Virus record (IMG/VR): IMGVR_UViG_3300037455_000372
Coordinates: 11,710-75,709 of that record
Strand: one strand, 5' to 3'
From: a virus
Lineage: Duplodnaviria > Heunggongvirae > Uroviricota > Caudoviricetes
DNA: 64,000 nt
The position numbers were made by a program, and so were the translations under genes. The notes beneath the pieces are model-generated. The model did no database searches, was not told the DNA's origin, and saw only the letters and a list, made by a program, of their open reading frames with translations. Of the stretch, positions 10,771-55,505 are shown in pieces (position 1 is the first letter of the stretch; the number at the start of each line of letters is the position of its first letter).

Positions 10771-10777
10771 GTGTTTT

Positions 10778-14339: not shown

Positions 14340-14487
14340 CGTATTGACATCTCGTCTGCAAATTGTTATATTAACTCCTAAAGTATTATAATGCGCGGGA
14401 GGGTTTAATGCGCCGCAGAGACAAGAAAAACCTCGCAGAACTGGGATTCCTAGGTTTTGGATTGCTGGTTCTTTTCATCATCAAGGG

Positions 14488-21160: not shown

Positions 21161-21171
21161 AAATATAGCAA
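21161..21171 (-). promoter_or_regulatory. TTGCTATATTT promoter-like motif (minus orientation) upstream of 1043-aa gene
   Basis: motif copy 6 nt before ATG 21155. Confidence 0.5.
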
Positions 21172-21247
21172 ATGTAGGCGAATTTGTCAAAACAAAAATG
21201 CCGAGGAATCGGCACATCGAACTCGACCGAGACCGCGATCACCGGCC

Positions 21248-25702: not shown

Positions 25703-26847
25703 TCAGCCACCTTGACCGTGTCGGTATACACGTTCTCGTCCCAATACTGCATAGCGTTCTTGAACCAGAGAACCTGTTCTTCGGACAGCGGAGTGTAGCG
25801 GTGGTAATCGGTAGCCAAGTCGAAACCGTTGCGCTTAGCAAAGGAACGACCGTGGATGTGGCCGTACAGATAGGTCACGCCGTCTCGTGACGGAGCCGGG
25901 AAATCGACCGGTTCGTGGATGATGGCAAACTTGAATGTCTCACCCTTCGCATTTGTCAGCTCCACCTCGCACAGACCGCCCGGAACCGGCTGGACGGTCT
26001 GGGTATGGTCGAACAGTTCGATGGAACGCTTACCCTCGTTCACTTGGTTAAACGCATCCACGATAGTCTTAATCTGGTCGAACGCCTTGCGGTCGTAGTT
26101 TCCGAGCGTCCAATACAGCTTCTTGAAGTTGAGGTTGGATAGTAAGTCGATGACGTACTGCTGGTTAGAGACTTCGCCGAAGTCGCCAGCGTGGTACACA
26201 ACGTCGTCGGGGCGGACAACCTTGTTCCAGTTGGACATCATCGTCAGATCCATTTCAACCAAGTCTGCGAACGGACGGCAAGAGAGTTCCAAGGTGCGCT
26301 GCTGGCCGAAATGCGTGTCGGAGGTGAACCACTTACGCTCCGGAGACTTCTGGAGGTCATTGACCACGTCAGACAGCATCTTCTTCAAGTCGTTGTACCA
26401 GCTTTTCTTCTGCTCCGTAAACTTGAGCGTGAGGTACTTCATCTTGGTAGCGTCTTCGGGGAATCCGAAGTACACGCCCGGCTTCTTGTACCATTCGCCG
26501 AACTCGATATTCGTCGTGAAGGCTGGCCATTTCTCGCATCGAGGGACCCAGAATACGAGAGCGGAACAGATGTGCATCATCGAGCGTTCCCACTCGGTCT
26601 GCGCCCACAGGCTGTCCGGCTGGTGACGTTCCATATCGCTGTACTTGTCGTTGGTCGGCGTAATGACGGTTCCACGGAAACCCAGCTCTTCGAGGATGTC
26701 GAACGCCGTGTATCGCCAGTCATCATCGTAGTCGAATCGAGGACACGGTCCGGCGAGGAAAATGGAGTTCCGAAGGTTGGTGGGCGGGTTGAGTGTCTTG
26801 GTTTCCTCGTTGAAGGGAACCAGAACGCGGAAAGAATAGTTCTTCAT
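25699..26847 (-). CDS. fusion protein: nucleoside 2-deoxyribosyltransferase-like N-domain + calcineurin-like metallophosphoesterase C-domain
   Basis: N-term SIFLAGPCPR...DDWRYTAFDILEELGF; C-term phosphoesterase motifs SDTHFG, HAGDFGE, LGNYD, YGHIHG in canonical order. Confidence 0.6.
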   Translation of the reverse strand: MKNYSFRVLVPFNEETKTLNPPTNLRNSIFLAGPCPRFDYDDDWRYTAFDILEELGFRGTVITPTNDKYSDMERHQPDSLWAQTEWERSMMHICSALVFWVPRCEKWPAFTTNIEFGEWYKKPGVYFGFPEDATKMKYLTLKFTEQKKSWYNDLKKMLSDVVNDLQKSPERKWFTSDTHFGQQRTLELSCRPFADLVEMDLTMMSNWNKVVRPDDVVYHAGDFGEVSNQQYVIDLLSNLNFKKLYWTLGNYDRKAFDQIKTIVDAFNQVNEGKRSIELFDHTQTVQPVPGGLCEVELTNAKGETFKFAIIHEPVDFPAPSRDGVTYLYGHIHGRSFAKRNGFDLATDYHRYTPLSEEQVLWFKNAMQYWDENVYTDTVKVAE

Positions 26848-33365: not shown

Positions 33366-33703
33366 TCAGAGCACATCACGCCGTGCTCCTTGAACCACTG
33401 GGCAACAATCTGACGATGGCAGAACTCGCCTTTAGGCTCGTAGCAAAGGAGAATCTTGTTGTCAAGCTCCTTGGCAAGCTCACGGGCGTCCATATGGTCG
33501 AGAACATCCTTGCGGAAGTCCTTCTCGAACTTTATCCGGTCGATAATTCCACGCTTGTAACACTCTACCAGACACATCGGAGGAGCCAGACGAATTTCAC
33601 GCGGACCGACGAACGCCGGGTGCGTGTGCTGCGCGATGGAAACCAGACGGTCGGCAAGTTCCGGATATTTCAAGACGGTATCGTAGTTGCTTGTATAAAT
33701 CAT
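33323..33703 (-). CDS. hypothetical Cys-rich protein (126 aa)
   Basis: minus ORF. Confidence 0.45.
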   Translation of the reverse strand: MIYTSNYDTVLKYPELADRLVSIAQHTHPAFVGPREIRLAPPMCLVECYKRGIIDRIKFEKDFRKDVLDHMDARELAKELDNKILLCYEPKGEFCHRQIVAQWFKEHGVMCSEWEVGCEEDQCENL

Positions 33704-34959
33704 ACGTTCTTCGGTACAGCTATAAGGTGTTCGGGGTCATTCACAAAGTCGAAGATGTAGTTCGTCATCTGTTCGACCTCGTTGGACTTAAACTCGGCCT
33801 TGGCAAACGAACCGTAAACCGCGTCAGTCTTTCGCTCGCCTACGCAGATACCGAACGCGTGAATCTTCTCACCCGGCTTAGCGGACAAGATCTGTGTCGC
33901 GACAATACGCTTGTTGGTGACCGTCGGAACGATGTTATACACTTCCAGCACGTTGTACGCCGAATCCGGGTTCATCTGCAGACCGAGTAAGTCGGTAGAC
34001 TGTGCGAAGTCCTCGTTCGCAAAGATGTGGAAGCTGTTCGTCGACGCGATAATCTGGATTCCACGAGTCGCGGCCAGCCTTATCAGCTGAGGCATCTGCG
34101 ACTGTGTCACACAGTGCATATGCAAGTCGATGTCGTCGACAATAATCACGCCCGGCCTACCGGCAATGCATATAGCCAGCATCAGCATAGCGAAATCGCC
34201 AGCAGACGGCTTGTGGACAATACGCTTGCCTTCTTCATCGCGGATAAACACGTCCTGAATGCGGTAGTCGACCGTCTCGGAAATATAGGGGTCGCGATAG
34301 AACCGCTGGAAGTATTTGGCGTCGACATTGGGTTCCTTGCCGTCCTCCCAAGTGTAATCCCACATATTCGACTTCTCGCCGTACATATAGGGAACATTTG
34401 CGATAAGGTTCACCAATTCCCAATTTGGCCTACGCGTATCGATAAGCTCTTCGAGGATAGACGGGTATGAATACTTCTCTTGCAATGTACGGTCGCCGCC
34501 AAGAGCCAATTCCGGTCTGCCAAAACGGTACGACGGCAACATACATACGTTCAAATCGGCAACCATCAGTTCATCGTGGTGATACTCCTTGCTAGAATCC
34601 TCACAACGGCTCTCGAAAATAATCGAGCCGTTCGAGTTATCGATAGCAGAGACCCAATAATGGTACTGGTCTAAATAAATCACCTTAATCGAGTTATTGA
34701 AGGTCTCCAGCGTAAATTCGTCAAACGGCTTTAGGTTATGCCCAAAATAGAACGGACACTCGCTCAACACCCCAATATTGCCGTGCTGTACAATGTCAGC
34801 AGCGAGCCGCAACAAGGTCAGAAGCAAGCTCTTGCCGCTACCAGTCGGTCCGGTTATGTAAGGCTTCTCAAGGAACTCGACGTGGTAATTGTACTGTCCG
34901 AGAAAGTTCTTGACATCGAACGACTTGATCCATCTATCTACACTTGCTGCTGGGGTCAT
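33700..34959 (-). CDS. AAA-family ATPase (ABC/RecF-like; possible OLD-family nuclease ATPase)
   Basis: Walker A GPTGSGKS, Walker B/D-loop VIIVDDIDLHMH. Confidence 0.6.
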   Translation of the reverse strand: MTPAASVDRWIKSFDVKNFLGQYNYHVEFLEKPYITGPTGSGKSLLLTLLRLAADIVQHGNIGVLSECPFYFGHNLKPFDEFTLETFNNSIKVIYLDQYHYWVSAIDNSNGSIIFESRCEDSSKEYHHDELMVADLNVCMLPSYRFGRPELALGGDRTLQEKYSYPSILEELIDTRRPNWELVNLIANVPYMYGEKSNMWDYTWEDGKEPNVDAKYFQRFYRDPYISETVDYRIQDVFIRDEEGKRIVHKPSAGDFAMLMLAICIAGRPGVIIVDDIDLHMHCVTQSQMPQLIRLAATRGIQIIASTNSFHIFANEDFAQSTDLLGLQMNPDSAYNVLEVYNIVPTVTNKRIVATQILSAKPGEKIHAFGICVGERKTDAVYGSFAKAEFKSNEVEQMTNYIFDFVNDPEHLIAVPKNV

Positions 34960-38306: not shown

Positions 38307-38984
38307 TTAACCCATATCGGCACCCTTATAAGACGGTATCACATAACCGTCGTTAGGATTGACAAAAAGCTTCTTTTCCCCATTAAGCGTCTTCTTCACA
38401 AGGTCAACCGCATCGGCCTTATTGATCACGCAAGGATTCTTCTTGTGAGTAGCCCAAGAATAGCAACGGTCACGCGTCTGGTCATCGTTAATGAACACAT
38501 AGCGATGGCCGAAATCGTCTACGTGTACCGTCGACTTGAATGACTGCACCCATTCACGGTTGTGTTCAACCGTAAACGGATTGTCACACAATACGTAGAC
38601 GTTCCACAAGATGTCACCTTCATTCATCTGGTTCTCGTCCAGTCGGTTCAAGTCAGTCTGGAAGATGATTTTCCCAGCCGGAGGAGTAGATGCGGACTTG
38701 GCACGGCCTTTCTTCACGTCGAAATCCGCAGGGACGATGTCCAAGAAGATGTTCAAGTTCACGCAGCCATATCGTGCGATAAGCGTAGATTGGTTCTGGT
38801 TAACCTTGTCAGCTTGCAAAAGCATCTGTCGTAAGTCTTCGGCGGAGTATTCCTTGCCGCCGACGGAAACCTTTGAACCGAAGTCCAACGTGGCCACATA
38901 GGCTACGTAACGATTATACTCGTGGTCGGCCACGATAGTATAAGTACGGTTAGGAACTGGATAAGAAGTGTTAATCGCGTACAT
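38307..38984 (-). CDS. hypothetical protein (225 aa)
   Basis: minus ORF. Confidence 0.5.
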   Translation of the reverse strand: MYAINTSYPVPNRTYTIVADHEYNRYVAYVATLDFGSKVSVGGKEYSAEDLRQMLLQADKVNQNQSTLIARYGCVNLNIFLDIVPADFDVKKGRAKSASTPPAGKIIFQTDLNRLDENQMNEGDILWNVYVLCDNPFTVEHNREWVQSFKSTVHVDDFGHRYVFINDDQTRDRCYSWATHKKNPCVINKADAVDLVKKTLNGEKKLFVNPNDGYVIPSYKGADMG

Positions 38985-40204
38985 TATTTCCCCTTGGCTT
39001 TCTCTTCGGAAGCCTTGAAATTGTAAATCGGCTTGATGGTCGTTATGATATCAGCCGTCTCTTGGATGTTACGGACGATCTCGCCCATCGGCTTGTAGGC
39101 CATCGGCGACTCGTCGATAGTGCCAGAACCAACACATGTCGTGTAGATACCTTCCATCGAAGACTTGAACGCCTCCATCGTCAAGGTCTCCTTCGCCTTG
39201 GAACGAGACATCAAACGTCCGGCACCGTGCGGTCCGGAGAAGTTCCACTCTTCGTTGCCCTTACCGCGAACCAAGAGCGAGCCGTCCCTCATATTCATCG
39301 GAATCAAGGCGACCTCGTCCTTCTGCAAGGAAATGGATCCCTTGCGCAGAATCATATTGTCCAAGTCGATGTAGTTATGCACGGTACAGAACTTGTCCAA
39401 GATGTGATGCTTCTTGATGCCCATACAGTCGATGATGACATCCATCATCGCCTCACGGTTCCACCAAGCGAAATCCTGAGCAATCTTCATATCGTGCAAG
39501 TAGTTCTGCAGCAATTCGCCTTCCAAGTAGGCCAGCTCGTCCGGAATCGGACACTTTGCCGCTTGGTTCGCCTTCAAGACCGTCTCAATCTCGGACTGGC
39601 GGCCCTGAGCCTTCAACCGCTCGATAACCTCTTGCTTCGTCTGACGCTGGTTCTTGTGGTACTTGATTGCTTCCTTCTGGTAGAAATTACACACCTCAAT
39701 ACCCAAGTGGCGCGAGCCGGAATGAATTACGATGTATTTATTACCATCGGAATCCACATCAATTTCGCCGAAATGATTTCCCGAACCAAGAGTCCCAATC
39801 GATAACATCAGTTTTTCGGCATTGACTGGAGCAATCAATTCGTCCAAAGCAACACGTTCAGTAAAGCGGTGCTTCTTCGTACGGTGGTTCATCCCAGACG
39901 GAATTTCGTTATGCCACACCTTGTCGAACTTCGGCAAGTCGAGGATGCAGTCCTTCGAGACCTTCATCACGAGCATACCACACCCGATGTCGACGCCGAC
40001 CAAGTTCGGCACGACACGGTCGACAATCTTCATCGTCAACCCAATAACACAGCCAGTACCGGCGTGGCAGTCCGGCATAATGGCGAAATGAGAACCTTCA
40101 GCAAACTTCTGGTTCATCAAGTTCAAAATCTGCTTGTAGGCGGCATCTTCCAAGATGTCAGTATACACCTTCGCCGTGTTAAACTTTCCTACGATTTCAA
40201 TCAT
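38984..40204 (-). CDS. rtcB: RtcB-family RNA ligase (3'-phosphate/5'-OH)
   Basis: MPDCHAGTGCVIG, GSGNHF, NFSGPHGAGR motifs in RtcB order; start set to MIEIVGKF (AGAGG RBS) because promoter motif 40229-40239 lies inside the longer ORF. Confidence 0.8.
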   Translation of the reverse strand: MIEIVGKFNTAKVYTDILEDAAYKQILNLMNQKFAEGSHFAIMPDCHAGTGCVIGLTMKIVDRVVPNLVGVDIGCGMLVMKVSKDCILDLPKFDKVWHNEIPSGMNHRTKKHRFTERVALDELIAPVNAEKLMLSIGTLGSGNHFGEIDVDSDGNKYIVIHSGSRHLGIEVCNFYQKEAIKYHKNQRQTKQEVIERLKAQGRQSEIETVLKANQAAKCPIPDELAYLEGELLQNYLHDMKIAQDFAWWNREAMMDVIIDCMGIKKHHILDKFCTVHNYIDLDNMILRKGSISLQKDEVALIPMNMRDGSLLVRGKGNEEWNFSGPHGAGRLMSRSKAKETLTMEAFKSSMEGIYTTCVGSGTIDESPMAYKPMGEIVRNIQETADIITTIKPIYNFKASEEKAKGK

Positions 40205-40208
40205 AATT

Positions 40209-40478
40209 CTAACCTCTGTAATTGGGGTAAATATAGCAACACGGAGGATAAATGTCAATACGCCAATCGCCTAATTGGTATGGCAAGTCCTTGGTCATTC
40301 GCATATACTCTTTCATCGGGTCTACCGGGTCAGTAAACATATTCTTGTCCATCGCCGGGACTGCTATCAAGACCAGAAGCATCGAAGTCCACAACGCTGT
40401 GCGCCTAATAGTACACTTCAACGCAACCAGAAAGGTTACCGTAAACCAAATAAGTGCCAATACCGCTTGATCTAGCAT
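40209..40478 (-). CDS. small membrane protein (89 aa, two TM segments)
   Basis: hydrophobic helices; minus ORF between operon members. Confidence 0.4.
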   Translation of the reverse strand: MLDQAVLALIWFTVTFLVALKCTIRRTALWTSMLLVLIAVPAMDKNMFTDPVDPMKEYMRMTKDLPYQLGDWRIDIYPPCCYIYPNYRG

Positions 40479-41071
40479 TCAGATATCGTAGCCTTCACGT
40501 CCATCGCCAACAGAGCCGCCGTATAGAGTACGTCTTCATCTTGAGAAAACTGCTTCATAGCCGTCACGAGCGACAATGCCGTATTGTTGTACTTCAGCGC
40601 ACGGACGGCACCCATATCCTTGATACCGCCATCCATAGAGCACGCCATCAATTCGAGGTTGCTGCTAATCGCAACATCTGACAAAAACGCGTAGCCACCC
40701 CCACTAATTTCAACACCAGTTGCTGGCTCAGGAAAATCGATTACTAAGCCTTTAGCACCATCAATACCGGCCATCTTATAAGCAATCAGTATGCTCTGAA
40801 CAAGCTGTTCACGCACTCCTGACTTGCAGCTGAACAAGTCGGTAAGCCTTCCATTAAGTCCTTCCACCACAAACAATATCAACAGTTGCGCAAGCTCGGT
40901 AAAAGTTTCGATCTTGTCCAAGCTGTCGTAGGTACACCAAGGAATATGAACCAAACCTTCTTCATCAGGTTTCGGAAATTCAATCGGGTCACGAAGGTTT
41001 CTATCACCGATTGAAAAACTATGTTCCGAAGACGAATTGGTTTCGAAAACCCCATTACGCATTGTTTCCAT
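40472..41071 (-). CDS. paralog family 2 protein (N-term METMRNGVFETNSSSEH)
   Basis: same signature as 37246 and 37852 genes. Confidence 0.55.
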   Translation of the reverse strand: METMRNGVFETNSSSEHSFSIGDRNLRDPIEFPKPDEEGLVHIPWCTYDSLDKIETFTELAQLLILFVVEGLNGRLTDLFSCKSGVREQLVQSILIAYKMAGIDGAKGLVIDFPEPATGVEISGGGYAFLSDVAISSNLELMACSMDGGIKDMGAVRALKYNNTALSLVTAMKQFSQDEDVLYTAALLAMDVKATISEC

Positions 41072-42509
41072 CGAATACTCCAGTGGCGACTATCGCCTTT
41101 GTAAGTTTGTCGATTACCGGCACGGTCACGCTGTTACCGATAAGCTTCATCCATCTCTGTCTAGTAGGAGGAAGCTCGAAATCCTCCGGGAAGCCTTGGA
41201 TGCGGCAAGCTTCCTTGTTCGTGATCTTACGGTAATTCTTATCCAAAGCGATATGCTTCAAGAATTCCGCCTTGCTGTTATGGGGCAAGTCGACCATAGC
41301 GACGTAATCGTTCGTATCGCTCGCTACCATAGTCGGGAAGATGTTGCACGATCTGAGGAACACCCGGTAGACACCGTTGATGCCAGTGCTGACCTTGGAA
41401 TTCTTCAAGTCGTAACGGACTTCCGCAACGCTCAACACACCTTCCTCAACCAGTTTCTTGATGGTTTCGATAACCACTGACCGGCTGAACTTCTTCAGTG
41501 CCGGTTGCTTGAAAATCTCCGGCAGACAGCGACCCTCTTCACAAGCCTTGATGACACTGCATATTGGAAGGTTCAAGTCCCCGCATTTTCCGACACCACC
41601 ATTGTAGGCATAGCGGTAGTCGACTCGGCGTATGATGTTCATCCTTACCAGAGCTGTCAACGACCTAAACAAGTCGGCCTTGTTGATATCCGGAAGCAAG
41701 TCGCCGATATGGTCGAACGACATCGGATTGCCGTCTTGCGGACCGTACTTCGACTTGCGGCGGTTCCTCATTATGGCCTCACAAATCCGTCGCTGGTTGT
41801 CCGACGTATTGGTGATTTCCCAAGAGTGAATCGTGGTCGCGCCGTCCCTAGCGTCGTTGAAAACGTAGTAGTCGTTCTCGCCGGTCGCGTTCTTGGACAA
41901 GCTGCGTGACGCCGACTTGACCTTGCTCATATCGACATATTCGCCGGTAAGAATCTCGTGCATCGTGAGCTTGTTCGGAGTCGGTTCTGGAAACTTGAAC
42001 TTCTCAAGCATAGCCGGATCGCGGAACCCAACAATGTACACACGCTCTCGCATCTGCGGAGAACCGTAGTCGAACGAGTTCAGAACCTTCCACGCCGCGT
42101 GGTACCCGGCTTCCTCGATTCTGGACAAGATGTACTGGAACGCCTCGATGTTGTGCTTGTCGGTCAACCCCTTAACATTCTCGAACAAGAAAGCCTTCGG
42201 CTGGCTCTTCGTCAAGAGGTAGATGGTATCGTTCCACAGCTGGCCACGGTCGTCATCAAATCCGAGACGCTTTCCAGCAACAGACCACGACTGACAAGGC
42301 ACACCGGCGGTTATGAAATCCACGGACGGAGGGTCCACTATCTTCGTGATATCGCCCAAGTTCTTGTCCTTGGACATCTTATGGTTGATACAGTAATACT
42401 CGATGGCGTCCTTGGCGACTTCGGAGAAGCCGACGCACTGACCGCCGTTGTTCTTGGCGGCAATGTGGAACCCACCTATACCAGCAAACAAGTCTAAAAA
42501 CGTGAACAT
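41055..42509 (-). CDS. dcm: DNA (cytosine-5)-methyltransferase
   Basis: FLDLFAGIGGF (motif I), GVPCQSWSVAGKR (motif IV PCQ), ENVKGL (motif VI); start trimmed to MFTFLD because the longer ORF overlaps tRNA-Arg. Confidence 0.8.
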   Translation of the reverse strand: MFTFLDLFAGIGGFHIAAKNNGGQCVGFSEVAKDAIEYYCINHKMSKDKNLGDITKIVDPPSVDFITAGVPCQSWSVAGKRLGFDDDRGQLWNDTIYLLTKSQPKAFLFENVKGLTDKHNIEAFQYILSRIEEAGYHAAWKVLNSFDYGSPQMRERVYIVGFRDPAMLEKFKFPEPTPNKLTMHEILTGEYVDMSKVKSASRSLSKNATGENDYYVFNDARDGATTIHSWEITNTSDNQRRICEAIMRNRRKSKYGPQDGNPMSFDHIGDLLPDINKADLFRSLTALVRMNIIRRVDYRYAYNGGVGKCGDLNLPICSVIKACEEGRCLPEIFKQPALKKFSRSVVIETIKKLVEEGVLSVAEVRYDLKNSKVSTGINGVYRVFLRSCNIFPTMVASDTNDYVAMVDLPHNSKAEFLKHIALDKNYRKITNKEACRIQGFPEDFELPPTRQRWMKLIGNSVTVPVIDKLTKAIVATGVFDGNNA

Positions 42510-43071: not shown

Positions 43072-43163
43072 TGGACCGACTCAGACTCGAACTGAGAAGT
43101 ACATTTTACTGTACGTGTGCCGGGTTATGAGTCCGGTGCCTTAACCAATTTGGCGATCGGTCC
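43072..43163 (-). tRNA. type-II-like tRNA (long variable stem-loop GTACA-GTAAAA-TGTAC) with anticodon CAT
   Basis: acceptor GGACCGA/TCGGTCC perfect, T-arm CTCAG-TTCGAGT-CTGAG, anticodon hairpin CCGG(A)-CTCATAA-(C)CCGG; about 92 nt. Confidence 0.5.
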
Positions 43164-45655: not shown

Positions 45656-47689
45656 CTATTCCAGAGAAGCTACCCAGTCGTTGTAGCTCGCGTCACTGGG
45701 CATACGCCAGTCGGCACGAGGAGACAGCGACAACGTACCGACCTTCGGTCCGTCAGGGATGCAACTGCGCTTGAACTGCTGGGTGAAGAAACGGCGCAAG
45801 AAGAGTTCAAGAGCCTTCTTCAGCTCGTCGTGCTTGTCCCTGCCGAACGCATATTCGGCCAGATACAGCATCTTCGACGGCGTGGCACCGTACTTCACGA
45901 AGTGGTACAAGTAGAAGTCGTGAATATCGTAGGATCCGAGGATGCTCTCCGTCTTCTGCGCAATATTGCCGTTTGCGTCAGCCGGAAGCAGCTCAGGAGA
46001 TACCGGCGTGTCCAAGATGTCTCTGAGAACATCGGCCAGATTCTTCTTGCTGTCATCGCCTTCGCCAATCATACGGTCGACAATGCTGTACTTGTATTCG
46101 TTGTCGGCCTTGTCGGCATACCAGTTCACGATATAACGAACAAGCGTCTTCGGAATGTCGCAGTTCACCGAGTACATCGACATATGGTCGGCGTTATAGG
46201 TACACCAGCCAAGAGCGATTTCGGACAAGTCTCCGGTTCCGATAACCATACCTTGTTCCTTGTTGGCCAAGTCCATAAGAATCTGGGTACGTTCACGAGC
46301 TTGCGTATTCTCGTATGTCACGTCGGTAACCTTCGGATCGTGTCCGATATCGTCGAAGTGCTGCATACAAGCCTTGGAAATGTTAATCGTACGGAGTTCC
46401 ACACCAAGAGCCTCAGCCATTTCTACGGCATTATTCTTGGTACGCTTGGTTGTACCAAACCCAGGCATTGTCACCGCAAGGATGTCGGAAACCGGTCTGC
46501 CCAAGAGCTTGTACGTCTCGTATACGACCAGCAAGGCCAACGTAGAGTCAAGACCGCCAGACAACCCGATTACGGAACGCTTCACTCCGGTTTCAAGACG
46601 CTTGGCAAGGCCAGCACACTGGATATTGAAGATTTCACGGCAACAGTCATTGCGAACATTGGCAGCACTCGGCACAAACGGAGTCGAAGAAACATAGCGG
46701 TATTTCAGCTCCTTATTTGTCGGAACTGGGTCAATATCGCGGAATTTAATGGGGTGATAAACACGAAAACGGTTAACAACATCGCTATGTCCGAAATCTT
46801 GGAACGAACCTTCGCTGATACGCTGCATATTCAAGCGAGCCGCGTCAATATCTGCATAGATAATCTCGGTATCGCGAGAGAACTTATTGCACTCGGCCAT
46901 AAGGCTGCCGTTCTCGGCAATCATCAGGTGGCCGCTGCAAACCATATCAGTTGTCGATTCGTGAACACCAGCGGAGGCGTACACGTAACCAGCCATACAA
47001 CGGGCGGACTGATTCGTCACAAGGTCGCGACGATAGTTGGCCTTGCCTACCAATGCGTCACTGGCAGACAAGTTCAGAATCACGTTCGCACCGGCAAGAG
47101 CAAGTTCACCACTCGGCGGAGCCGGAGTCCACAAGTCTTCACACAATTCTACGCCGAGGCGTAATTCTGTATTGTTGGCAAACCCAAGCAAGTTGGTAAT
47201 TACCGGTTCATAGGCACCGACCCGGCACGTAAGAGCGTGACCGAACTCGTCACCCTTGAGCAATTCATAGCCGCTAGAAAAATGACGTTTTTCGTAAAAT
47301 TCGCGCTGGTTAGGCAAGTGAATCTTAGGCGTTACCGCGACAACCGATCCATTTTGGATAAGCACGGCGCAGTTGTACAAACGACCGAAAATCCGAAGCG
47401 GCGCACCCACAGCAATGATGACGTTTTTAAACGTATCACTGTTCATTTGGGTCATCCGGCAAATGTCAGTAATACCGTCGATTGTCTTCTGAAGAAGCGT
47501 CTCTTGATGGAAGAGGTCGTTACAAGTATAACCGGTGATACTCAGTTCCGGGAATACGACAACCGTTGCGCCGTTCTTTACGGCTTCCTTGGTCGCTTTC
47601 TTGATTTCAGCCACGTTGTATTCAGTATCTGCCACCTTGAGCTTGGGGCATACTGCAGCAAATCTGTAAAATCCGAATCCGTTATTCAT
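45656..47689 (-). CDS. nadE: glutamine-dependent NAD+ synthetase (CN-hydrolase + NadE domains)
   Basis: N-domain nitrilase-type FPELSITGY / K / LCEDLW triad; C-domain PP-loop GLSGGLDSTL; 677 aa typical for the two-domain enzyme. Confidence 0.8.
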   Translation of the reverse strand: MNNGFGFYRFAAVCPKLKVADTEYNVAEIKKATKEAVKNGATVVVFPELSITGYTCNDLFHQETLLQKTIDGITDICRMTQMNSDTFKNVIIAVGAPLRIFGRLYNCAVLIQNGSVVAVTPKIHLPNQREFYEKRHFSSGYELLKGDEFGHALTCRVGAYEPVITNLLGFANNTELRLGVELCEDLWTPAPPSGELALAGANVILNLSASDALVGKANYRRDLVTNQSARCMAGYVYASAGVHESTTDMVCSGHLMIAENGSLMAECNKFSRDTEIIYADIDAARLNMQRISEGSFQDFGHSDVVNRFRVYHPIKFRDIDPVPTNKELKYRYVSSTPFVPSAANVRNDCCREIFNIQCAGLAKRLETGVKRSVIGLSGGLDSTLALLVVYETYKLLGRPVSDILAVTMPGFGTTKRTKNNAVEMAEALGVELRTINISKACMQHFDDIGHDPKVTDVTYENTQARERTQILMDLANKEQGMVIGTGDLSEIALGWCTYNADHMSMYSVNCDIPKTLVRYIVNWYADKADNEYKYSIVDRMIGEGDDSKKNLADVLRDILDTPVSPELLPADANGNIAQKTESILGSYDIHDFYLYHFVKYGATPSKMLYLAEYAFGRDKHDELKKALELFLRRFFTQQFKRSCIPDGPKVGTLSLSPRADWRMPSDASYNDWVASLE

Positions 47690-48950: not shown

Positions 48951-49024
48951 AGGCCATTTCCTCTGACTTGAATATAGCAATTTGCACCGATCTTGTCAAC
49001 ACTAAAATATCGAAATAAAACAAA

Positions 49025-49587: not shown

Positions 49588-49725
49588 AAAAAGACAAGGT
49601 GCTATTCGCTTTACTTATCTGAGCCTAGTTCAGAGGTATAGGTTGTGTTGCTGTAAGCACCTTTAAACTCTTTTTGTCAAACATCAGATTCAGTCTCGCT
49701 GAATCATTACGAACCAAATATAGAT

Positions 49726-50274
49726 TTAGATTTTGAGGTTGTCAAGGGGTTTTGGTGAATTTTTATCGTTTTTCTTTCCGCCCAGCTTACCGTTTATATA
49801 ATTGGTCGCAATCGCGAAAACTGCGCCAGACGCCATTCCGATAAAATGGTTCATATGGCCGATCCCATCCGCCTTTCCGGTCGCCATAAGCTCCTGACCG
49901 CCATACGTCACCACGACAAACAATCCGCATAAAGAGAACATATGCTTGGAATCGGCCATCAAGTTCAGCATAAACAGTGCGAACACGAACGCCGACATAC
50001 CGATGCCGTACTGGTTCACCAGTCCCTGATACAGCGAATCCACCCAGCAAGTGAACAAGAAGGCCAGCAGATAGCTAACCTTGCCATAGCTGCGCTCCAC
50101 CATCGGACTCAAAACGGCAAACAGCATACTGTTGTTAAGCCAATGGTTAAAGTCGCCGTGCATAAAGGCCGACGTGACCATATTGTACGGAATGTCGCTC
50201 TTGCATAGCAGACCGACTAAGGACAGCACAATGAAAGTGACCGACAGTATCTCGTCCTTGAGCACATTAAGCAT
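49726..50274 (-). CDS. rhomboid-like intramembrane protein
   Basis: polytopic; HGDFNHWLNNSMLF (H..H..N block), GIGMSAF (GxSx), GHMNHFIGMASG (His region). Confidence 0.5.
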   Translation of the reverse strand: MLNVLKDEILSVTFIVLSLVGLLCKSDIPYNMVTSAFMHGDFNHWLNNSMLFAVLSPMVERSYGKVSYLLAFLFTCWVDSLYQGLVNQYGIGMSAFVFALFMLNLMADSKHMFSLCGLFVVVTYGGQELMATGKADGIGHMNHFIGMASGAVFAIATNYINGKLGGKKNDKNSPKPLDNLKI

Positions 50275-51138: not shown

Positions 51139-51576
51139 TTACCCCTTATAGAGCTGATACTTTTTGCTCAAAGTACGACTAGTCTCGTCGGGCAACGGCT
51201 TGAACCAGATTCCGACGCGGCAATACTTGTTGCCTTTCTCGTCTACGGCCTCCGGAGTCAGCTCCGTCAAGCAAGCGTCGTCGATAAAGTCATAGTCGGT
51301 TCCCTTGACCAGACCCATTTCCTTGGCGACATCCTCCACCTTCATCAAGTGGTTAAGATTCTTCGCCTCGCAGATGGTCTTGACGAACAGACCTTGGATA
51401 TACTCTTCCATCGTCTTTGTATCGAGTTCGAACGTCACTTGGTATACACCGTCGTCCTCCATCGAATTCGTGGAAATAAGGCGGGTCCAGTAACCCTCGG
51501 CACAGTGAGCCACCATCGCGGCAAGCTTACCGGCAGACAAATTCAAGTCCTTTCGGATGATAAATAAACGGCGCAT
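51139..51576 (-). CDS. PTH2-family peptidyl-tRNA hydrolase-like protein
   Basis: FIIRKDLNLSAGKLAAMVAHCAEG matches the PTH2 v.R.DL.m..GKiaAQ..HA opening block. Confidence 0.55.
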   Translation of the reverse strand: MRRLFIIRKDLNLSAGKLAAMVAHCAEGYWTRLISTNSMEDDGVYQVTFELDTKTMEEYIQGLFVKTICEAKNLNHLMKVEDVAKEMGLVKGTDYDFIDDACLTELTPEAVDEKGNKYCRVGIWFKPLPDETSRTLSKKYQLYKG

Positions 51577-52505
51577 TACTTCTCCGTCTTGTTATTAGTC
51601 TTCAACCATTCTTGGAAATACCAGAGCTGTCCACAACCGCCTCCGATGTCGTCCTGACCCGCCGGGTTGAACACACGGAGCGACACGCCACGGGAAAGCA
51701 AGGCATCCTTGAAGTTATTGATAACCTCAAGCTGACGGTCGATACTGGCGGCCACCGTCTCGTCCTTCGAGCAGATGACGCTCAAGGTCGTCTCCCATAC
51801 CTTCGGGTCGAACAGGTCTACCAAGCGTTCGGCATCCTCGACGGCGTTGTTGCCTTCGTGGACACAGTAGTTGTAAAACGGCTTTCTACCCACATAGGAC
51901 GCCCACATCTCGCCAAGAGAAGCGATCTGACGCAACGTGCTGGTCTTGGTCGGAATGAGCTTCGAACGGTTCTCGTCGGTGCTCTCGTGGACGGAGAACT
52001 GCAGTCCAACCTTGTCGATTTGCTTGGACAATTCGATGAACGACGGCATATTGTGGAGCGAGTCCCAAGTCGGTGCCGATGTCGACACCAGCAACGCGGC
52101 GTTCGGATATTTCTGGTTGAGACGCTTGATGGCACATTCCAGATTGATGTAGTTCATAAACGGCTCGCCCATCGACATAAACATAATCTGGAACTTCTTG
52201 ATTTCCTCGGTATGCGTGTCCTTGAGTACGGAGTCGGCGATCGCAGTCTCGACTTGCTGGACAATCTCGGACGCAGTCAAGTTGCGGACGAAGAACTTAC
52301 CCGTACCGCAGAAGGTACAGCCGACCGGGCAACCGCTCATAACGGAACAACAGATGACCGTGCGTTCCTTGTAGGATCCGTAACGGTACAGAACAGCCTC
52401 GGCGATAGCCGCCTTGCTATGGATGCCCGCATCTTCTTCCTTGGACCATTCGAAAACGTATTTCTTTACATTGGTGTCCGACGACTGGAAAACCTTGTAC
52501 TGCAT
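51576..52505 (-). CDS. RlmN/Cfr-family radical-SAM RNA methyltransferase (N-terminally short, 309 aa)
   Basis: CPVGCTFCGTGKFFVRNLTASEIVQQV (CX3CX2C plus RlmN FNRNL..EI..Q block), IMFMSMGEPFMN (GMGEP), C-terminal GGGCGQL (conserved methyl-carrier Cys). Confidence 0.75.
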   Translation of the reverse strand: MQYKVFQSSDTNVKKYVFEWSKEEDAGIHSKAAIAEAVLYRYGSYKERTVICCSVMSGCPVGCTFCGTGKFFVRNLTASEIVQQVETAIADSVLKDTHTEEIKKFQIMFMSMGEPFMNYINLECAIKRLNQKYPNAALLVSTSAPTWDSLHNMPSFIELSKQIDKVGLQFSVHESTDENRSKLIPTKTSTLRQIASLGEMWASYVGRKPFYNYCVHEGNNAVEDAERLVDLFDPKVWETTLSVICSKDETVAASIDRQLEVINNFKDALLSRGVSLRVFNPAGQDDIGGGCGQLWYFQEWLKTNNKTEK

Positions 52506-52557
52506 ATTTACCTCATTTTTGTAGAAATATAGGTATCTGCAGCACCGTTGTCAAGAC

Positions 52558-53168: not shown

Positions 53169-53255
53169 ATACCGACGCCCAGACTCGAACTGGGATGGGA
53201 CTTGATGTCCCGGACGATTAGAAGTCGTCTGCACTATCCAATTATGCGACGCCGG
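53169..53255 (-). tRNA. type-II-like tRNA (18-nt variable stem-loop GGGAC-ATCAA-GTCCC) with anticodon TCT
   Basis: acceptor GCCGGCG/CGTCGGT, D-arm GCAT-AATTGGATA-GTGC, anticodon arm GACGA-CTTCTAA-TCGTC perfect, T-arm CCCAG-TTCGAGT-CTGGG. Confidence 0.5.
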
Positions 53256-53262
53256 CAAAAGA

Positions 53263-54260: not shown

Positions 54261-55505
54261 CTATTCAGGTTTAATGTCAAACTGGTTCAATTTACGTCGG
54301 AAATACTTCCCTTTAAATTCATCTGGAAACCGGTTTAAAGTCGCTTCAATAACTCTTTTGGTCAAATGAGTTACTTGTTCGACTTTTCCTACCCAACCAA
54401 ATTTCATTAAATCGACACCGCTATTCAGTATTAACTCTTTTCGGTGATTCCATTCTAAGTTAGGCACCCCCTTTCCATCGATATGCCCATCTACACGTAT
54501 TAAACCATTTTGTTCAGAAAGTTTCCGCTTACTCGCATATTCTTCGATTTCAACCTTACGCTTTTCTGAATTTCTAGGTGTAGTTTTATGTTTTTTAAGT
54601 ATAGCACCTTGATTAACTGGAACATAAATCTGAGGCAGAGTATTCGTAGTATTCGAAATAAATGCCTTAATGTAGGATGCAACGATTTGTTTACGATCAT
54701 CATCCGACAGTTTCTTATACAATTTCCAACGAATTCGTCCGATTAGAAACCACCCATTCTTAGCTAATTCGGCAGTCCGGTTTGCGTCATACTCCAACCC
54801 ATCTGGTGTGTAATGAGATTCGCCATCAACTTCAAAGTATACTTTATTTGTTAAATTAGCAAAATCCAATAAATATCCACACGCACGATAGTTATTCCGC
54901 CACACAACGGTAGAATTCAATTCCTTTACTAATATATCATAAAAATACTGTTCAGCATAACTACGATGAATATGCGGATTAACCCACGTAGAACTACCAC
55001 GACCGTCTGCAATTTGTTTCTTCCGAGATTCGCTCAATTTATGACGCGTTTCTTCTGAACAAGGTTTCCTTTTCAATGTTCCATCAAGAATCCGTTGTCT
55101 AACATTCAACAAAGTTTTACGATGAATATCTGGGTCATACGTTCTACCCAAAGAATCAACCGGTAACTGACGTTTCGCATCACATTCCAAATAATGTTTA
55201 GCTAACTTACGCTTGCTTTCACAAACACCCAAACAATATTTACAGACCCAACCCCGGCTAGATTCAGTAGACCCTTTATGTCTATACTTATCCGAACAAT
55301 ATTTACCGTGTTCATCTATCCTGTGCCTATCACGATCTCGGCTCGTTTTAAAAAAGTTATGGCATATCGGGCATTCCCACGAATATGGTTTAGGTCTATT
55401 TTTGATAATATCCGCGTGCTCAATATGATGATGTTTACGCAATTCGTCTCGTGTACGGCAAGGAAACCCACATTTCGGACATATCCATTTCTTTTGTAAC
55501 TGCAT
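54261..55505 (-). CDS. homing-endonuclease-like protein: N-terminal C2H2 zinc fingers + C-terminal Vsr/DUF559-like PD-(D/E)xK nuclease fold
   Basis: CPKCGF..H..HH and CPICHNFF..H..H fingers; YFEVDGESHYTPDGLEYDANRTAELAKNGWFLIGRIRW resembles Vsr-like endonuclease core; strongly AT-rich versus flanks; variant promoter GTATAGCAAT 55531-55540. Confidence 0.5.
   Translation of the reverse strand: MQLQKKWICPKCGFPCRTRDELRKHHHIEHADIIKNRPKPYSWECPICHNFFKTSRDRDRHRIDEHGKYCSDKYRHKGSTESSRGWVCKYCLGVCESKRKLAKHYLECDAKRQLPVDSLGRTYDPDIHRKTLLNVRQRILDGTLKRKPCSEETRHKLSESRKKQIADGRGSSTWVNPHIHRSYAEQYFYDILVKELNSTVVWRNNYRACGYLLDFANLTNKVYFEVDGESHYTPDGLEYDANRTAELAKNGWFLIGRIRWKLYKKLSDDDRKQIVASYIKAFISNTTNTLPQIYVPVNQGAILKKHKTTPRNSEKRKVEIEEYASKRKLSEQNGLIRVDGHIDGKGVPNLEWNHRKELILNSGVDLMKFGWVGKVEQVTHLTKRVIEATLNRFPDEFKGKYFRRKLNQFDIKPE

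What the first reader, a model, noticed from the sequence alone, without database searches (positions are those of the whole stretch)
51576..52505. Phage-encoded RlmN/Cfr-family radical-SAM methyltransferase
The protein has CX3CX2C in the RlmN-type context GCPVGCTFCGTG-FVRNLTASEIVQQV, the GMGEP box and the C-terminal CGQL methyl-carrier cysteine. At 309 aa it lacks the usual N-terminal domain. RlmN methylates A2503 of 23S rRNA and A37 of tRNAs, and Cfr methylates C8 of A2503 and confers multi-antibiotic resistance. In a phage with about 40 tRNAs it may modify phage tRNAs, or it could alter host ribosome drug sensitivity.
Basis: partly seen in the sequence, partly recalled or inferred. Interest (0 to 1): 0.7.

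Follow-up and report, generated by a model that had tools for sequence, protein, structure and literature searches.

The report
Phage RlmN-like enzyme tied to NAD⁺ salvage
This phage gene encodes a stripped-down relative of the RNA-methylating enzymes RlmN and Cfr that keeps their radical chemistry but lacks their RNA-gripping parts, and its relatives in many other phages sit inside operons that rebuild NAD⁺ to defeat bacterial immunity, so its target may not be ribosomal or transfer RNA.

Summary
The ORF at 51576-52505 (-) is real: 309 aa with CX3CX2C, the methyl-carrier Cys291 (CGQL), the resolving Cys52 and an RlmN-type fold (AF2 pLDDT 86.6; top 10 PDB hits are all RlmN). The box reads SMGEP, not GMGEP.

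It is neither an RlmN nor a Cfr orthologue.
- It scores 101 bits against a 290-bit RlmN cutoff, and 77-81 against 468-550 for Cfr.
- It has no HhH2 N-terminal domain, and none is encoded elsewhere in the window.
- It shares 1 of 7 Cfr-signature residues.
- Three canonical nucleotide contacts (Ec T116/N307/R344) are replaced by clade-conserved V/T/F.
- It is acidic (pI 5.8; canonical median 8.9).
- It falls in a separate clade (NJ bootstrap 90), abundant in phages and prophage-like DNA across many phyla.

The tRNA link is local. PTH2 coupling is specific to this lineage, and tRNA arrays flank the gene in only 3 lineages.

The persistent neighbours across 71 lineages are NAD⁺ reconstitution and salvage genes (Prs/Adps-like, NAMPT/Namat-like, PncA, PncB, NadD, NadE, NUDIX, macro). 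One lies within 300 bp in 13 lineages and within 5 kb in 18. I found no report of this.

Best reading: an RlmN-type C-methyl synthase with a changed substrate, probably linked to phage NAD⁺/ADP-ribose counter-defence. RNA methylation remains a serious rival. Cfr-type drug resistance is unlikely.

The parts
51576..52505 (-). CDS, 309 aa: RlmN/Cfr-superfamily radical-SAM methyl synthase without the N-terminal domain ('SMGEP' phage clade)
52350..52352 (-). Codon for Cys52, equivalent to E. coli RlmN C118 / Cfr C105 (the cysteine that resolves the crosslink)
   Evidence: Alignments; Cys in 39 of 43 short SMGEP-clade sequences
52308..52331 (-). CX3CX2C motif (Cys59, Cys63, Cys66), ligands of the [4Fe-4S] cluster
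52161..52175 (-). S111-M-G-E-P115 box (GMGEP in canonical enzymes); the Ser is a clade signature
51633..51635 (-). Codon for Cys291 in GGGCGQL, equivalent to RlmN C355 / Cfr C338 (the methyl-carrier cysteine)
52526..52554 (-). Sigma-70-type promoter TTGACA-N17-TATATT (11 of 12) directly upstream; one of 14 copies of this motif in the window
52511..52514 (-). GAGG ribosome-binding site, 5 nt before the ATG
   Evidence: Sequence read
51139..51576 (-). Downstream gene: PTH2-type peptidyl-tRNA hydrolase, whose start overlaps the RlmN-like stop codon (TAATG)
   Evidence: shared only with L013
50267..51136 (-). 289-aa protein of unknown function in the same apparent transcription unit
   Evidence: no family match
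49726..50274 (-). Rhomboid-family protein, last gene before the next promoter copy (49717-49745) and a terminator-like site (49687-49705)
45656..47689 (-). Glutamine-dependent NAD+ synthetase (NadE), 3.9 kb downstream on the same strand; the only NAD gene found in this window

Best explanation
Shown: the gene encodes an intact, expressed-looking member of the RlmN/Cfr (class A) radical-SAM methyl-synthase superfamily. It consists only of the beta-sheet extension, the radical-SAM barrel and the C-terminal loop. It keeps the [4Fe-4S] ligands, the SAM/5'-deoxyadenosine pocket, the methyl-carrier Cys291 and the resolving Cys52. It therefore should carry out RlmN-type chemistry. SAM methylates Cys291. 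A second SAM gives a 5'-deoxyadenosyl radical that abstracts a hydrogen from the methyl-cysteine. The resulting methylene radical adds to an sp2 carbon of a heteroaromatic ring, most likely adenine C2 or C8, and Cys52 resolves the covalent adduct.

Also shown: the protein belongs to a large phage and mobile-element clade distinct from RlmN and Cfr. This clade lacks the HhH2 RNA-anchoring domain, is acidic rather than basic, and has replaced three canonical nucleotide-backbone contacts.

Inferred: the enzyme does not bind 23S rRNA or tRNA in the way RlmN and Cfr do. Its relatives are repeatedly embedded in phage NAD+ reconstitution and salvage operons (NARP1-like Prs/Adps plus NAMPT/Namat plus macro; or PncA-PncB-NadD-NadE-NUDIX). 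Its most likely role is therefore an accessory counter-defence enzyme that C-methylates an adenine-containing or pyridine-containing nucleotide connected with NAD+/ADP-ribose metabolism. In this particular phage it is transcribed from its own early-type promoter together with a PTH2 peptidyl-tRNA hydrolase, inside a tRNA island, with NadE 3.9 kb downstream.
For: Family and fold:
- TIGR00048 E=6e-29.
- PDB RlmN and Cfr hits.
- AF2 model with pLDDT 86.6 and pTM 0.89.
- The Foldseek top 10 are all RlmN, E 1e-18 to 1e-13, and the next family scores about 1e-6.

Catalytic residues and the 5'-dA pocket (F65, C66, M110, C291, G292) are conserved across the clade.

Separate clade:
- NJ split with bootstrap 90 of 100, and the Cfr clade at 100.
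- SMGEP signature.
- No curated family reaches its cutoff.

Loss of RNA-binding features:
- No PF21016, with positive controls.
- T116/N307/R344 (Ec) replaced by V50/T240/F279, conserved in 32-35 of 43 clade members.
- The 4-residue insertion carrying the basic KRR/PRR segment is absent, as is the Cfr alpha5/beta6 extension.
- pI 5.83, clade median 6.1, against 8.9 for 26 canonical representatives.
- The Cfr cryo-EM study shows that the N-terminal domain anchors the rRNA.

NAD context:
- A core NAD-biosynthesis gene lies within 300 bp in 13 of 71 lineages and within 5 kb in 18 of 71; among relatives at least 60% identical the figure is 5 of 13.
- Pfam verified the neighbour families.
- The gene lies inside the operons in several different orders.
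- Vibrio phage 166E36-1 has Prs - HNH - macro - NAMPT - RlmN-like.
- One NUDIX-fused copy is followed by NAMPT and an NMNAT-type gene.
- Binomial P is 4e-6 even at a generous 4% null rate.
- Only about 4-5% of phages encode any NARP pathway.
- Extra genes in NARP1 operons (Adpp, RyDEP) have proven NAD-centred functions.

Expression signals.
Against: - Every characterised member of the superfamily methylates RNA, and no class A enzyme is known to act on a free nucleotide.
- About 75% of lineages show no NAD gene within 5-10 kb.
- In this window the only NAD gene is NadE, 3.9 kb away, while the immediate neighbours are translation-related (PTH2, tRNAs, RtcB).
- Accessory genes of large phages cluster in islands, so part of the association could be non-functional.
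- The lineages are not fully independent.
- The domain fusions (NUDIX, HD) are singletons.
- Some adenine-pocket features are retained: Y42 (= Cfr Y97), R48 (= RlmN R114) and the beta-sheet extension. These fit a nucleotide held within RNA as well as a free nucleotide.
- The pI distributions overlap.
- The tree is NJ only.
- No biochemical data exist.
Confidence: 0.45

Rival explanations
1. This is the first reader's view in broadened form: an RNA C-methyltransferase that installs m2A or m8A on phage or host tRNA (position 37) or on rRNA. It would recognise RNA by a different, minimal mode or through a partner protein. The purpose would be, for example, to tune decoding by the 39 phage tRNAs or to protect tRNA or rRNA from defence nucleases and toxins.
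For: All characterised homologues methylate adenine in RNA. The closest sequence and structure matches are RlmN, including the tRNA complex 5hr7. The beta-sheet extension, Y42 and R48 are retained. In this window the gene is translationally coupled to PTH2, lies within a 39-tRNA island and is near RtcB. In phage ANB28 and two IMG/VR contigs it also sits among tRNAs. A universal RNA target would fit the very broad host range.
Against: The HhH2 domain that anchors RNA in RlmN and Cfr is missing and is not encoded elsewhere. The protein is acidic. The conserved backbone contacts R344, N307 and T116 are replaced. PTH2 occurs in 1 lineage, RtcB in 2 and tRNA arrays in 3 of 71, while most loci have no tRNA within 8-10 kb. 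The hosts of the isolate phages are expected to have RlmN already, which would make a plain duplicate redundant; that expectation rests on general knowledge and was not tested here.
Confidence: 0.3
2. A Cfr-like resistance determinant: C8 methylation of 23S rRNA A2503, changing the host ribosome's sensitivity to PhLOPSA antibiotics.
For: It shares the superfamily and mechanism cysteines with Cfr. Tyr42 matches Cfr Tyr97.
Against: The Cfr models score 77-81 bits against cutoffs of 468-550. Only 1 of 7 Cfr-signature residues is shared (Y97, W101, S103, S151, S153, Q329, F330). There is no alpha5/beta6 basic extension, and no N-terminal domain, which anchors H91/H92 in the Cfr-rRNA complex. The Cfr clade is separate with bootstrap 100, and the phage clade lies outside the canonical cluster.
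Confidence: 0.03
3. A DNA-base or dNTP-level modification enzyme, for example producing 2-methyl- or 8-methyl-deoxyadenine as a phage genome hypermodification against restriction.
For: A free-nucleotide substrate is compatible with the loss of RNA-binding features. There are singleton fusions to NUDIX and to an HD/dGTPase-like domain. MazG-like, PAPS-reductase-like and DNA-replication genes occur in some neighbourhoods.
Against: There is no conserved association with DNA polymerase, dNMP kinase or glycosylase/transferase genes. The persistent neighbours are NAD genes, not dNTP genes. The fusions are singletons. C-methylated adenine is not, to my knowledge, a reported phage DNA base.
Confidence: 0.07
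4. The co-location with NAD genes is a by-product of accessory-gene islands, and the protein has some unrelated or decayed function.
For: Large phages cluster auxiliary genes. NAMPT-family genes occur in 2009 of 50,697 phage records. About 75% of lineages lack NAD neighbours.
Against: The catalytic and pocket residues are invariant across 62 diverse sequences, and identity stays at 46-71% across hosts from many phyla, which indicates strong purifying selection. The gene lies inside NAD operons, not merely near them, and in several independent orders. NAD families make up most of the top-ranked neighbour families, ahead of core phage genes.
Confidence: 0.12

Closest known systems
RlmN (dual-specificity 23S rRNA A2503 / tRNA A37 C2-methyltransferase; TIGR00048, PDB 3RFA, 5HR7, 6FZ6)
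   Same: Radical-SAM partial TIM barrel with the beta-sheet extension. CX3CX2C, the methyl-carrier and resolving cysteines and the 5'-dA pocket are all present. RlmN is the best sequence and structure match. R48 equals RlmN R114.
   Different: No HhH2 N-terminal domain. 101 bits against a 290-bit cutoff. A separate clade. T116/N307/R344 are replaced by V/T/F. The 4-residue insertion carrying the basic KRR segment is absent. The protein is acidic. It has SMGEP instead of GMGEP. It lacks E. coli RlmN's long K/R-rich C-terminal helix. Its genomic context is phage NAD+ operons rather than housekeeping loci.
Cfr / Cfr(B,C,D) (23S rRNA A2503 C8-methyltransferase, PhLOPSA resistance; TIGR04432, NF000424, PDB 9P0P)
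   Same: Same superfamily, same ping-pong methyl-synthase mechanism and same cysteines. Tyr at the Cfr Y97 position.
   Different: 77-81 bits against 468-550 cutoffs. Only 1 of 7 signature residues shared. No N-terminal domain. No alpha5/beta6 basic extension. A different clade. It is not found on resistance plasmids or transposons.
Accessory genes of phage NAD+ reconstitution operons (NARP1 Adps/Namat with macro-domain Adpp; RyR-domain RyDEP; NARP2; NARP3)
   Same: Relatives occupy the same position, as an extra gene inside or directly next to Prs/Adps-like plus NAMPT/Namat-like (plus macro) operons or Preiss-Handler-type clusters in phages. For Adpp and RyDEP that position reflects a function feeding NAD+ rebuilding.
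   Different: It is a radical-SAM methyl synthase, not a hydrolase or transferase of ADPR derivatives. None of the NARP papers I read mentions it. Its substrate is unknown. In this window only NadE is nearby.
Other short viral COG0820-type radical-SAM proteins (e.g. uncultured Caudovirales A0A6J5RTK8; Pseudomonas phage 201phi2-1 B3FJU2; phrog_24834)
   Same: RlmN-like fold without the N-terminal domain, encoded by phages, function unknown.
   Different: Only 17-20% identity. They belong to different branches of the short forms (GMGEP types) and were not examined for NAD context.

Membership tests
RlmN (TIGR00048 / PRK11194 equivalogs) | Scores above the curated NCBIfam equivalog cutoff | tested here: not met
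   101.1 bits against cutoff 290 (TIGR00048); 63.8 against 633 (NF008396)
RlmN (TIGR00048 / PRK11194 equivalogs) | HhH2-type N-terminal RNA-binding domain (Pfam RlmN_N, PF21016) | tested here: not met
   Not detected in the protein. Detected in the Klebsiella RlmN and Cfr controls. The ORF cannot be extended, and no such domain is encoded elsewhere in the window. The AF2 model of residues 1-58 is all beta.
RlmN (TIGR00048 / PRK11194 equivalogs) | CX3CX2C cluster motif plus C118 and C355 mechanism cysteines | tested here: met
   C59/C63/C66, C52 and C291 align
RlmN (TIGR00048 / PRK11194 equivalogs) | Conserved substrate-nucleotide contacts (Ec T116, N307, R344) and the basic RR segment | tested here: not met
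   V50, T240 and F279 replace them and are conserved in 32-35 of 43 clade members, against T/N/R in 20-25 of 26 canonical sequences. The KRR/PRR insertion is absent.
RlmN (TIGR00048 / PRK11194 equivalogs) | Phylogenetic placement within the canonical RlmN clade | tested here: not met
   An NJ split with bootstrap 90 of 100 puts the window sequence in a group with no canonical long form; every reference RlmN and Cfr falls on the other side
RlmN (TIGR00048 / PRK11194 equivalogs) | m2A2503 / m2A37 methylation activity | not testable with these tools
   Needs biochemistry or mass spectrometry
Cfr family (TIGR04432, NF000424, NF011024) | Scores above the curated cutoffs | tested here: not met
   77-80.6 bits against 468-550
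Cfr family (TIGR04432, NF000424, NF011024) | Cfr-conserved active-site residues Y97, W101, S103, S151, S153, Q329, F330 (Fruci et al. 2026) | tested here: not met
   Only Y97 is shared. The window has Y42, R48, V50, Q106, M108, P281 and A282.
Cfr family (TIGR04432, NF000424, NF011024) | Positively charged alpha5/beta6 loop extension and N-terminal domain binding H90-H92 | tested here: not met
   The segment is 27 residues here against 33 in Cfr, with net charge -1 against +2. There is no N-terminal domain.
Cfr family (TIGR04432, NF000424, NF011024) | Confers the PhLOPSA resistance phenotype / m8A2503 | not testable with these tools
   Needs MIC assays and mass spectrometry
RlmN/Cfr superfamily (class A radical-SAM methyl synthases, COG0820) | Closest relatives by sequence and fold are RlmN and Cfr, with the two-cysteine methyl-synthase apparatus | tested here: met
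Accessory component of phage NAD+ reconstitution/salvage operons (NARP-associated) | Located within or directly adjacent to Prs/Adps-like, NAMPT/Namat-like, PncA, PncB, NadD or NadE genes | tested here: inconclusive
   Met at family level: 13 of 71 lineages within 300 bp and 18 of 71 within 5 kb. In this window only NadE is found, 3.9 kb downstream, and the immediate neighbours are PTH2 and unknown genes.
Accessory component of phage NAD+ reconstitution/salvage operons (NARP-associated) | Acts on NAD+/ADPR-derived molecules or improves infection of hosts with NAD+-depleting defences | not testable with these tools
   Needs enzymology and phage genetics
Known anti-phage defence proteins (PADLOC-DB) | Matches any defence-system model | tested here: not met
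   No hit for the protein or its three neighbours

The most novel reading that the evidence does not exclude
This clade would be the first RlmN-type (class A) radical-SAM methyl synthase that acts on a free nucleotide rather than on RNA. It would C-methylate the adenine or pyridinium ring of NAD+, ADP-ribose or an ADPR-derived immune signal, as a previously unnoticed accessory arm of phage NAD+ reconstitution pathways. It might, for example, produce an NAD+/ADPR analogue that resists or inhibits defence NADases, or inactivate ADPR-based signals.
Probability: 0.3. Interest if true: 0.9.

Novelty: new variant of a known kind. Interest (0 to 1): 0.7.

Why it matters
RlmN and Cfr are the only characterised class A radical-SAM methylases, and both act on RNA. 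This is a very abundant, strongly conserved viral clade that keeps the chemistry but has shed the RNA-binding apparatus. It would extend the substrate range of that chemistry.

The repeated placement of the gene inside NAD+ reconstitution operons ties it to an active area of phage-bacterium research. Every extra gene examined so far in such operons (Adpp, RyDEP) has revealed a new layer of defence and counter-defence. The hypothesis can be tested directly with a reconstituted enzyme and with phage knock-outs.

Practically, automated annotation of these genes as '23S rRNA (adenine2503-C2)-methyltransferase', or flagging them as Cfr-like resistance genes in viromes, is not justified by the evidence.

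Tried and rejected
- **Nucleotide search of the region against isolate phages.** No match. A large ORF also had no protein match, so the phage could not be placed taxonomically.
- **tRNA guilt-by-association.** Tested on 45 and then 128 loci and found not conserved.
- **Conserved operon partner.** PTH2, the 289-aa protein, the upstream 137-aa protein and the rhomboid are lineage-specific.
- **Split gene or N-terminal domain supplied in trans.** No such domain anywhere in the window. The longer clade members (P0123, P0125, P0126, P0170) also lack PF21016.
- **Domain fusions as functional clues.** NUDIX (P0128, P0247) and HD/dGTPase-like (P0196) fusions exist. P0128 and P0196 are singletons, and P0128 is absent from IMG/VR as a fusion. 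They count only as weak hints.
- **Defence-system membership.** No PADLOC hit.
- **Schwalm et al. 2016 (RlmN-tRNA structure).** The paper could not be retrieved, so RlmN's tRNA contacts were taken indirectly from the Cfr papers.
- **Literature searches.** Searches for any phage RlmN-like or radical-SAM link to NAD found nothing relevant.
Full report
**1. The observation.**

The ORF listing gives one ORF at 51576..52505 on the minus strand: ATG start, 309 aa. The in-frame upstream sequence runs into a stop codon, so the ORF cannot be extended.

The sequence carries the quoted motifs:
- GCPVGCTFCGTGKFFVRNLTASEIVQQV, with cluster Cys59/63/66;
- GGGCGQL, with Cys291.

ARAGORN finds 39 tRNA genes in the window.

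**2. Family assignment.**

- Pfam sees only Radical_SAM and Fer4_12.
- NCBIfam ranks RlmN first (TIGR00048, E=6e-29, 101 bits), then an RlmN-paralogue model and the Cfr models (77-81 bits). All are far below their curated cutoffs of 290-633.
- PHROGs has no good family; the best is phrog_24834 at 53 bits, function unknown.
- Against PDB sequences the best hits are RlmN 6fz6 (1e-21), Cfr 9p0p (1e-12) and E. coli RlmN (2e-12). The alignment starts near RlmN residue 104 and runs to the CGQL cysteine.
- An AlphaFold2 model built on a 62-sequence alignment is confident (pLDDT 86.6, pTM 0.89).
- Its ten best Foldseek matches in the PDB are all RlmN (E 1e-18 to 1e-13, TM about 0.7). The next radical-SAM family scores about 1e-6.
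- Residues 1-58 are modelled as beta strands only. The alignment shows the protein starts at the conserved S-x-D-x-x-x-K strand of the beta-sheet extension.

In short, the protein is 'beta extension + radical-SAM barrel + C-terminal loop' with the helical HhH2 lobe removed.

**3. Catalytic apparatus.**

I aligned 112 sequences: the window protein, phage isolates, IMG/VR relatives, 50%-identity cluster representatives, and reference RlmN and Cfr/Cfr(C)/Cfr(D) taken from annotated records. The window protein has Cys at the positions of E. coli C118, C125, C129, C132 and C355, as do nearly all complete members of its clade. The 5'-deoxyadenosine pocket residues named for Cfr (F118, C119, M155, C338, G339) are conserved. 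Only I290 is changed, to Ser. The RlmN/Cfr ping-pong methyl-synthase chemistry, as described in the Cfr cryo-EM paper, is therefore expected to operate.

**4. Why it is not RlmN or Cfr proper.**

(a) The N-terminal domain is absent. Pfam RlmN_N (PF21016) is absent from the window protein and from the few longer clade members. It is found in the Klebsiella RlmN (112 bits) and Cfr (24.7 bits) controls. No such domain is encoded anywhere in the 64 kb.

(b) The protein falls in a separate clade. The exhaustive search of 50%-identity representatives shows a continuum of proteins of about 280-315 aa, from 64% down to about 30% identity. Canonical-length RlmN appears only at about 85-98 bits.

(c) The tree supports the separation. 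An NJ tree on 241 core columns separates a 42-sequence group from the group that holds every canonical RlmN, the Cfr clade and 17 other short forms. The 42-sequence group contains the window protein and is mostly of the SMGEP type. Bootstrap support is 90 of 100, and Cfr itself is monophyletic at 100.

(d) The Cfr signature is missing. Of the seven residues reported as Cfr-specific, only Tyr97 is shared.

(e) The substrate contacts differ. Three residues that hold the target nucleotide in the Cfr-rRNA complex are near-invariant in canonical enzymes: Ec T116, N307 and R344. They are replaced by Val50, Thr240 and Phe279, which are themselves conserved in 32-35 of 43 clade members.

(f) Basic elements are missing. 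The 4-residue insertion with the basic KRR/PRR segment is absent, as is Cfr's positively charged alpha5/beta6 extension.

(g) The charge differs. The window protein has pI 5.83 and net charge -4, and its close relatives have pI 5.0-5.7. The clade median is 6.1, against 8.9 for 26 canonical representatives and 8.7 for Cfr.

The Cfr cryo-EM study states that the N-terminal domain carries a positive patch crucial for rRNA binding and anchors the H90/H91/H92 junction. It also states that tRNA is bound analogously by RlmN.

**5. Distribution.**

- The clade is very large. More than 120 clusters at 90% identity are at least 66% identical to the query, and all are about 295-310 aa.
- In the 50%-identity library, 67 representatives score below 1e-30.
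- Isolates carrying it, at 47-53% identity, include Stenotrophomonas phages ANB28 and BUCTxx99, Aeromonas phage Ahp1, a group of Vibrio phages (166E36-1 and relatives), Salmonella phage Arash and a 462-kb uncultured phage. They annotate it as hypothetical, 'radical SAM, partial' or 'RlmN'.
- It also occurs, at 46-67% identity, on contigs assigned to Bacteroidota, Firmicutes, Actinobacteria, Alpha-, Beta- and Gammaproteobacteria, Saccharibacteria and archaeal bins.
- At least one of these contexts is clearly prophage-like, with a CI-type repressor, RecT and SSB.

**6. Context in this window.**

- A near-consensus promoter (TTGACA-N17-TATATT, 11 of 12) lies at 52554-52526, followed by a GAGG ribosome-binding site.
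- The motif occurs 14 times in the window against 0.21 expected, so it is a promoter class of this phage.
- The stop codon overlaps the start of a PTH2-type peptidyl-tRNA hydrolase (TAATG).
- A 289-aa protein of unknown function and a rhomboid-family protein follow, before the next promoter copy.
- RtcB, a C5 DNA methylase and a glutamine-dependent NadE (45656-47689) lie further downstream on the same strand.

**7. Is the tRNA/translation context conserved? No.**

- Among 45 related loci, only 6 had any tRNA within 10 kb.
- Among 128 loci, 20 had at least one tRNA. Counting only the 109 loci with a full-length copy, that is 16 of 71 lineages. Arrays occur only in the window, its 95%-identical relative L013 and L042.
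- PTH2, the 289-aa protein and the upstream 137-aa protein are shared only with L013. RtcB is shared with one other locus.

**8. What is conserved: NAD+ genes.**

The first hints were these:
- NAMPT lies immediately upstream in Vibrio phage 166E36-1.
- A NUDIX-fused copy is followed by NAPRTase-family and NMNAT-type genes.
- An isochorismatase/PncA-like gene lies immediately downstream in a prophage-like locus.

I pooled 109 loci that hold a full-length copy and grouped them into 71 lineages at 80% identity. Clustering of all neighbouring ORFs put NAD-related families at the top of the ranking: PncA-like, NUDIX, NAPRT/PncB, NadE (Gln), NadD-like, NadE (NH3), NAMPT and macro-like. These ranked ahead of SSB and DNA polymerase. 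Pfam confirmed the assignments.

With HMMs of these families:
- a core NAD-biosynthesis gene lies within 300 bp of the RlmN-like gene in 13 of 71 lineages;
- one lies within 5 kb in 18 of 71 lineages;
- among loci with at least 5 kb of flank on both sides, the figures are 10 and 15 of 52;
- among lineages at least 60% identical to the window protein, 5 of 13 have one within 5 kb.

The gene lies inside the operons, in different orders:
- PncA-x-Prs-RlmN-like-NAMPT-x-macro-NadE (L029, 66% identical);
- Prs-HNH-macro-NAMPT-RlmN-like (Vibrio phage 166E36-1);
- RlmN-like-Prs-NAMPT…macro (L096);
- PncA-PncB-RlmN-like-NadE-x-NadD…NUDIX (L107);
- PncA-PncB-NadE-RlmN-like (L091);
- PncA-RlmN-like-NUDIX (L102);
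- Prs-RlmN-like-NadD-NUDIX (L145).

For scale, NAMPT-family genes occur in about 4% of phage records, and NARP pathways in about 4-5% of phages. Under a generous null of 4% per lineage, 13 or more of 71 has P = 4e-6. The lineages are not fully independent, and accessory genes do cluster, so this is strong but not conclusive.

The window itself holds only NadE, 3.9 kb downstream.

**9. Literature.**

The Prs-like/NAMPT-like pair is the NARP1 pathway (Adps/Namat). Macro-domain Adpp and the RyR-domain glycosidase RyDEP are extra genes inserted in NARP1 operons. Both were shown experimentally to feed NAD+ rebuilding. None of the NARP1/2/3, aRES or RyDEP papers contains the words 'radical' or 'RlmN'. 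Searches for phage RlmN-like genes, or for a radical-SAM link to NAD, returned nothing relevant. Within the searchable library the association appears to be unreported.

**10. Interpretation.**

Shown:
- superfamily membership;
- an intact methyl-synthase apparatus;
- absence of the RNA-anchoring domain and of other basic elements;
- a remodelled substrate pocket;
- a separate, abundant, strongly conserved viral clade;
- recurrent embedding in NAD+ operons;
- lack of a conserved tRNA or translation context.

Inferred: the substrate. I consider a nucleotide connected with NAD+/ADPR metabolism the best-supported guess (about 0.45 including the counter-defence role). RNA methylation by a minimal enzyme is the main rival (about 0.3). 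It is favoured by precedent and by this phage's own PTH2/tRNA neighbourhood. Cfr-type resistance is unlikely (about 0.03). The NUDIX and HD fusions are singletons and add little. PADLOC gives no hit, so it is not a known defence protein.

**11. Verdict.**

However, the gene should not be filed as RlmN or Cfr, and the tRNA rationale is local rather than general.

The unexpected result is the link to NAD+ reconstitution operons. This makes the clade a concrete, testable candidate for a new activity of class A radical-SAM chemistry and for a new layer of the NAD+-centred conflict between phages and bacteria.

Noticed in passing
window, 14 sites, e.g. 52526-52554, 49717-49745, 48971-48999, 40230-40258, 21162-21190 (all -), 14344-14372 (+): A promoter-like motif TTGACA-N17-TATATT occurs 14 times (0-1 mismatch) against 0.21 expected by chance. 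Many copies carry a TGn extended -10. It looks like the phage's class of host-RNA-polymerase (early) promoters.
   Followed up: partly
window 51139-51576 (-): A PTH2-type (archaeal/eukaryotic-type) peptidyl-tRNA hydrolase is encoded by the phage. It is translationally coupled (TAATG) to the RlmN-like gene and shared only with the 95%-identical contig L013.
   Followed up: partly
window 38984-40204 (-) and 36649-60042: An RtcB RNA ligase (Pfam 2e-59) lies next to a 39-gene tRNA island, a likely tRNA-repair and replacement module against anticodon nucleases.
   Followed up: no
window 45656-47689 (-): A full-length glutamine-dependent NAD+ synthetase (CN_hydrolase + NAD_synthase) in a phage. No other NAD genes were found in the 64 kb.
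   Followed up: partly
window 57412-58329 (-) and 54261-55505 (-): Homing-endonuclease-like ORFs (phrog_655; DUF559 plus a C2H2 zinc finger) are inserted within the tRNA arrays.
   Followed up: no
window 43072-43163, 58445-58534, 53169-53257 (-): Unusually long tRNA calls: Met 92 nt, Asn 90 nt and Arg(tct) 89 nt. They may carry introns or insertions, or may be miscalled.
   Followed up: no
window 49726-50274 (-): A rhomboid-family membrane protein is encoded in the same apparent transcription unit as the RlmN-like and PTH2 genes, which is unusual for a phage.
   Followed up: no
window 18024-21155 (-), 60384-63884 (-), 9673-13728 (+): Large ORFs (up to 1043 aa) have no Pfam or PHROG family. The one tested by tblastn (18024-21155) has no match in 50,697 phage records. 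The phage is very distant from cultured ones; its nearest relative is IMG/VR contig 3300028797_002668.
   Followed up: partly
window 41055-42509 (-) and 33700-34959 (-): A 484-aa C5 cytosine DNA methyltransferase and an AAA_21/ABC-type ATPase (AbiEii/OLD-like hit) lie in the same gene array.
   Followed up: no
L083 2043-3449; proteins P0128, P0196, P0247, P0433: Rare fusions of N-terminal-domain-less RlmN-like cores to NUDIX (twice, in different branches), to an HD/dGTPase-like domain and to a phosphoribosyltransferase domain. P0128 and P0196 are singletons.
   Followed up: partly
L056 (Vibrio phage 166E36-1) 6115-10918; L029 7540-12418: These operons look like NARP1 with the associated macro-domain phosphatase (NARP1-AP), extended by the RlmN-like gene. 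In L029 the RlmN-like gene sits between the Prs/Adps-like and NAMPT/Namat-like genes.
   Followed up: partly
L016-L031 (gene -1, e.g. L018 9011-9595); window 25699-26847 (-): A calcineurin-like metallophosphoesterase is the gene immediately upstream of the RlmN-like gene in about 12 IMG/VR loci. A related phosphoesterase is encoded elsewhere in the window.
   Followed up: no
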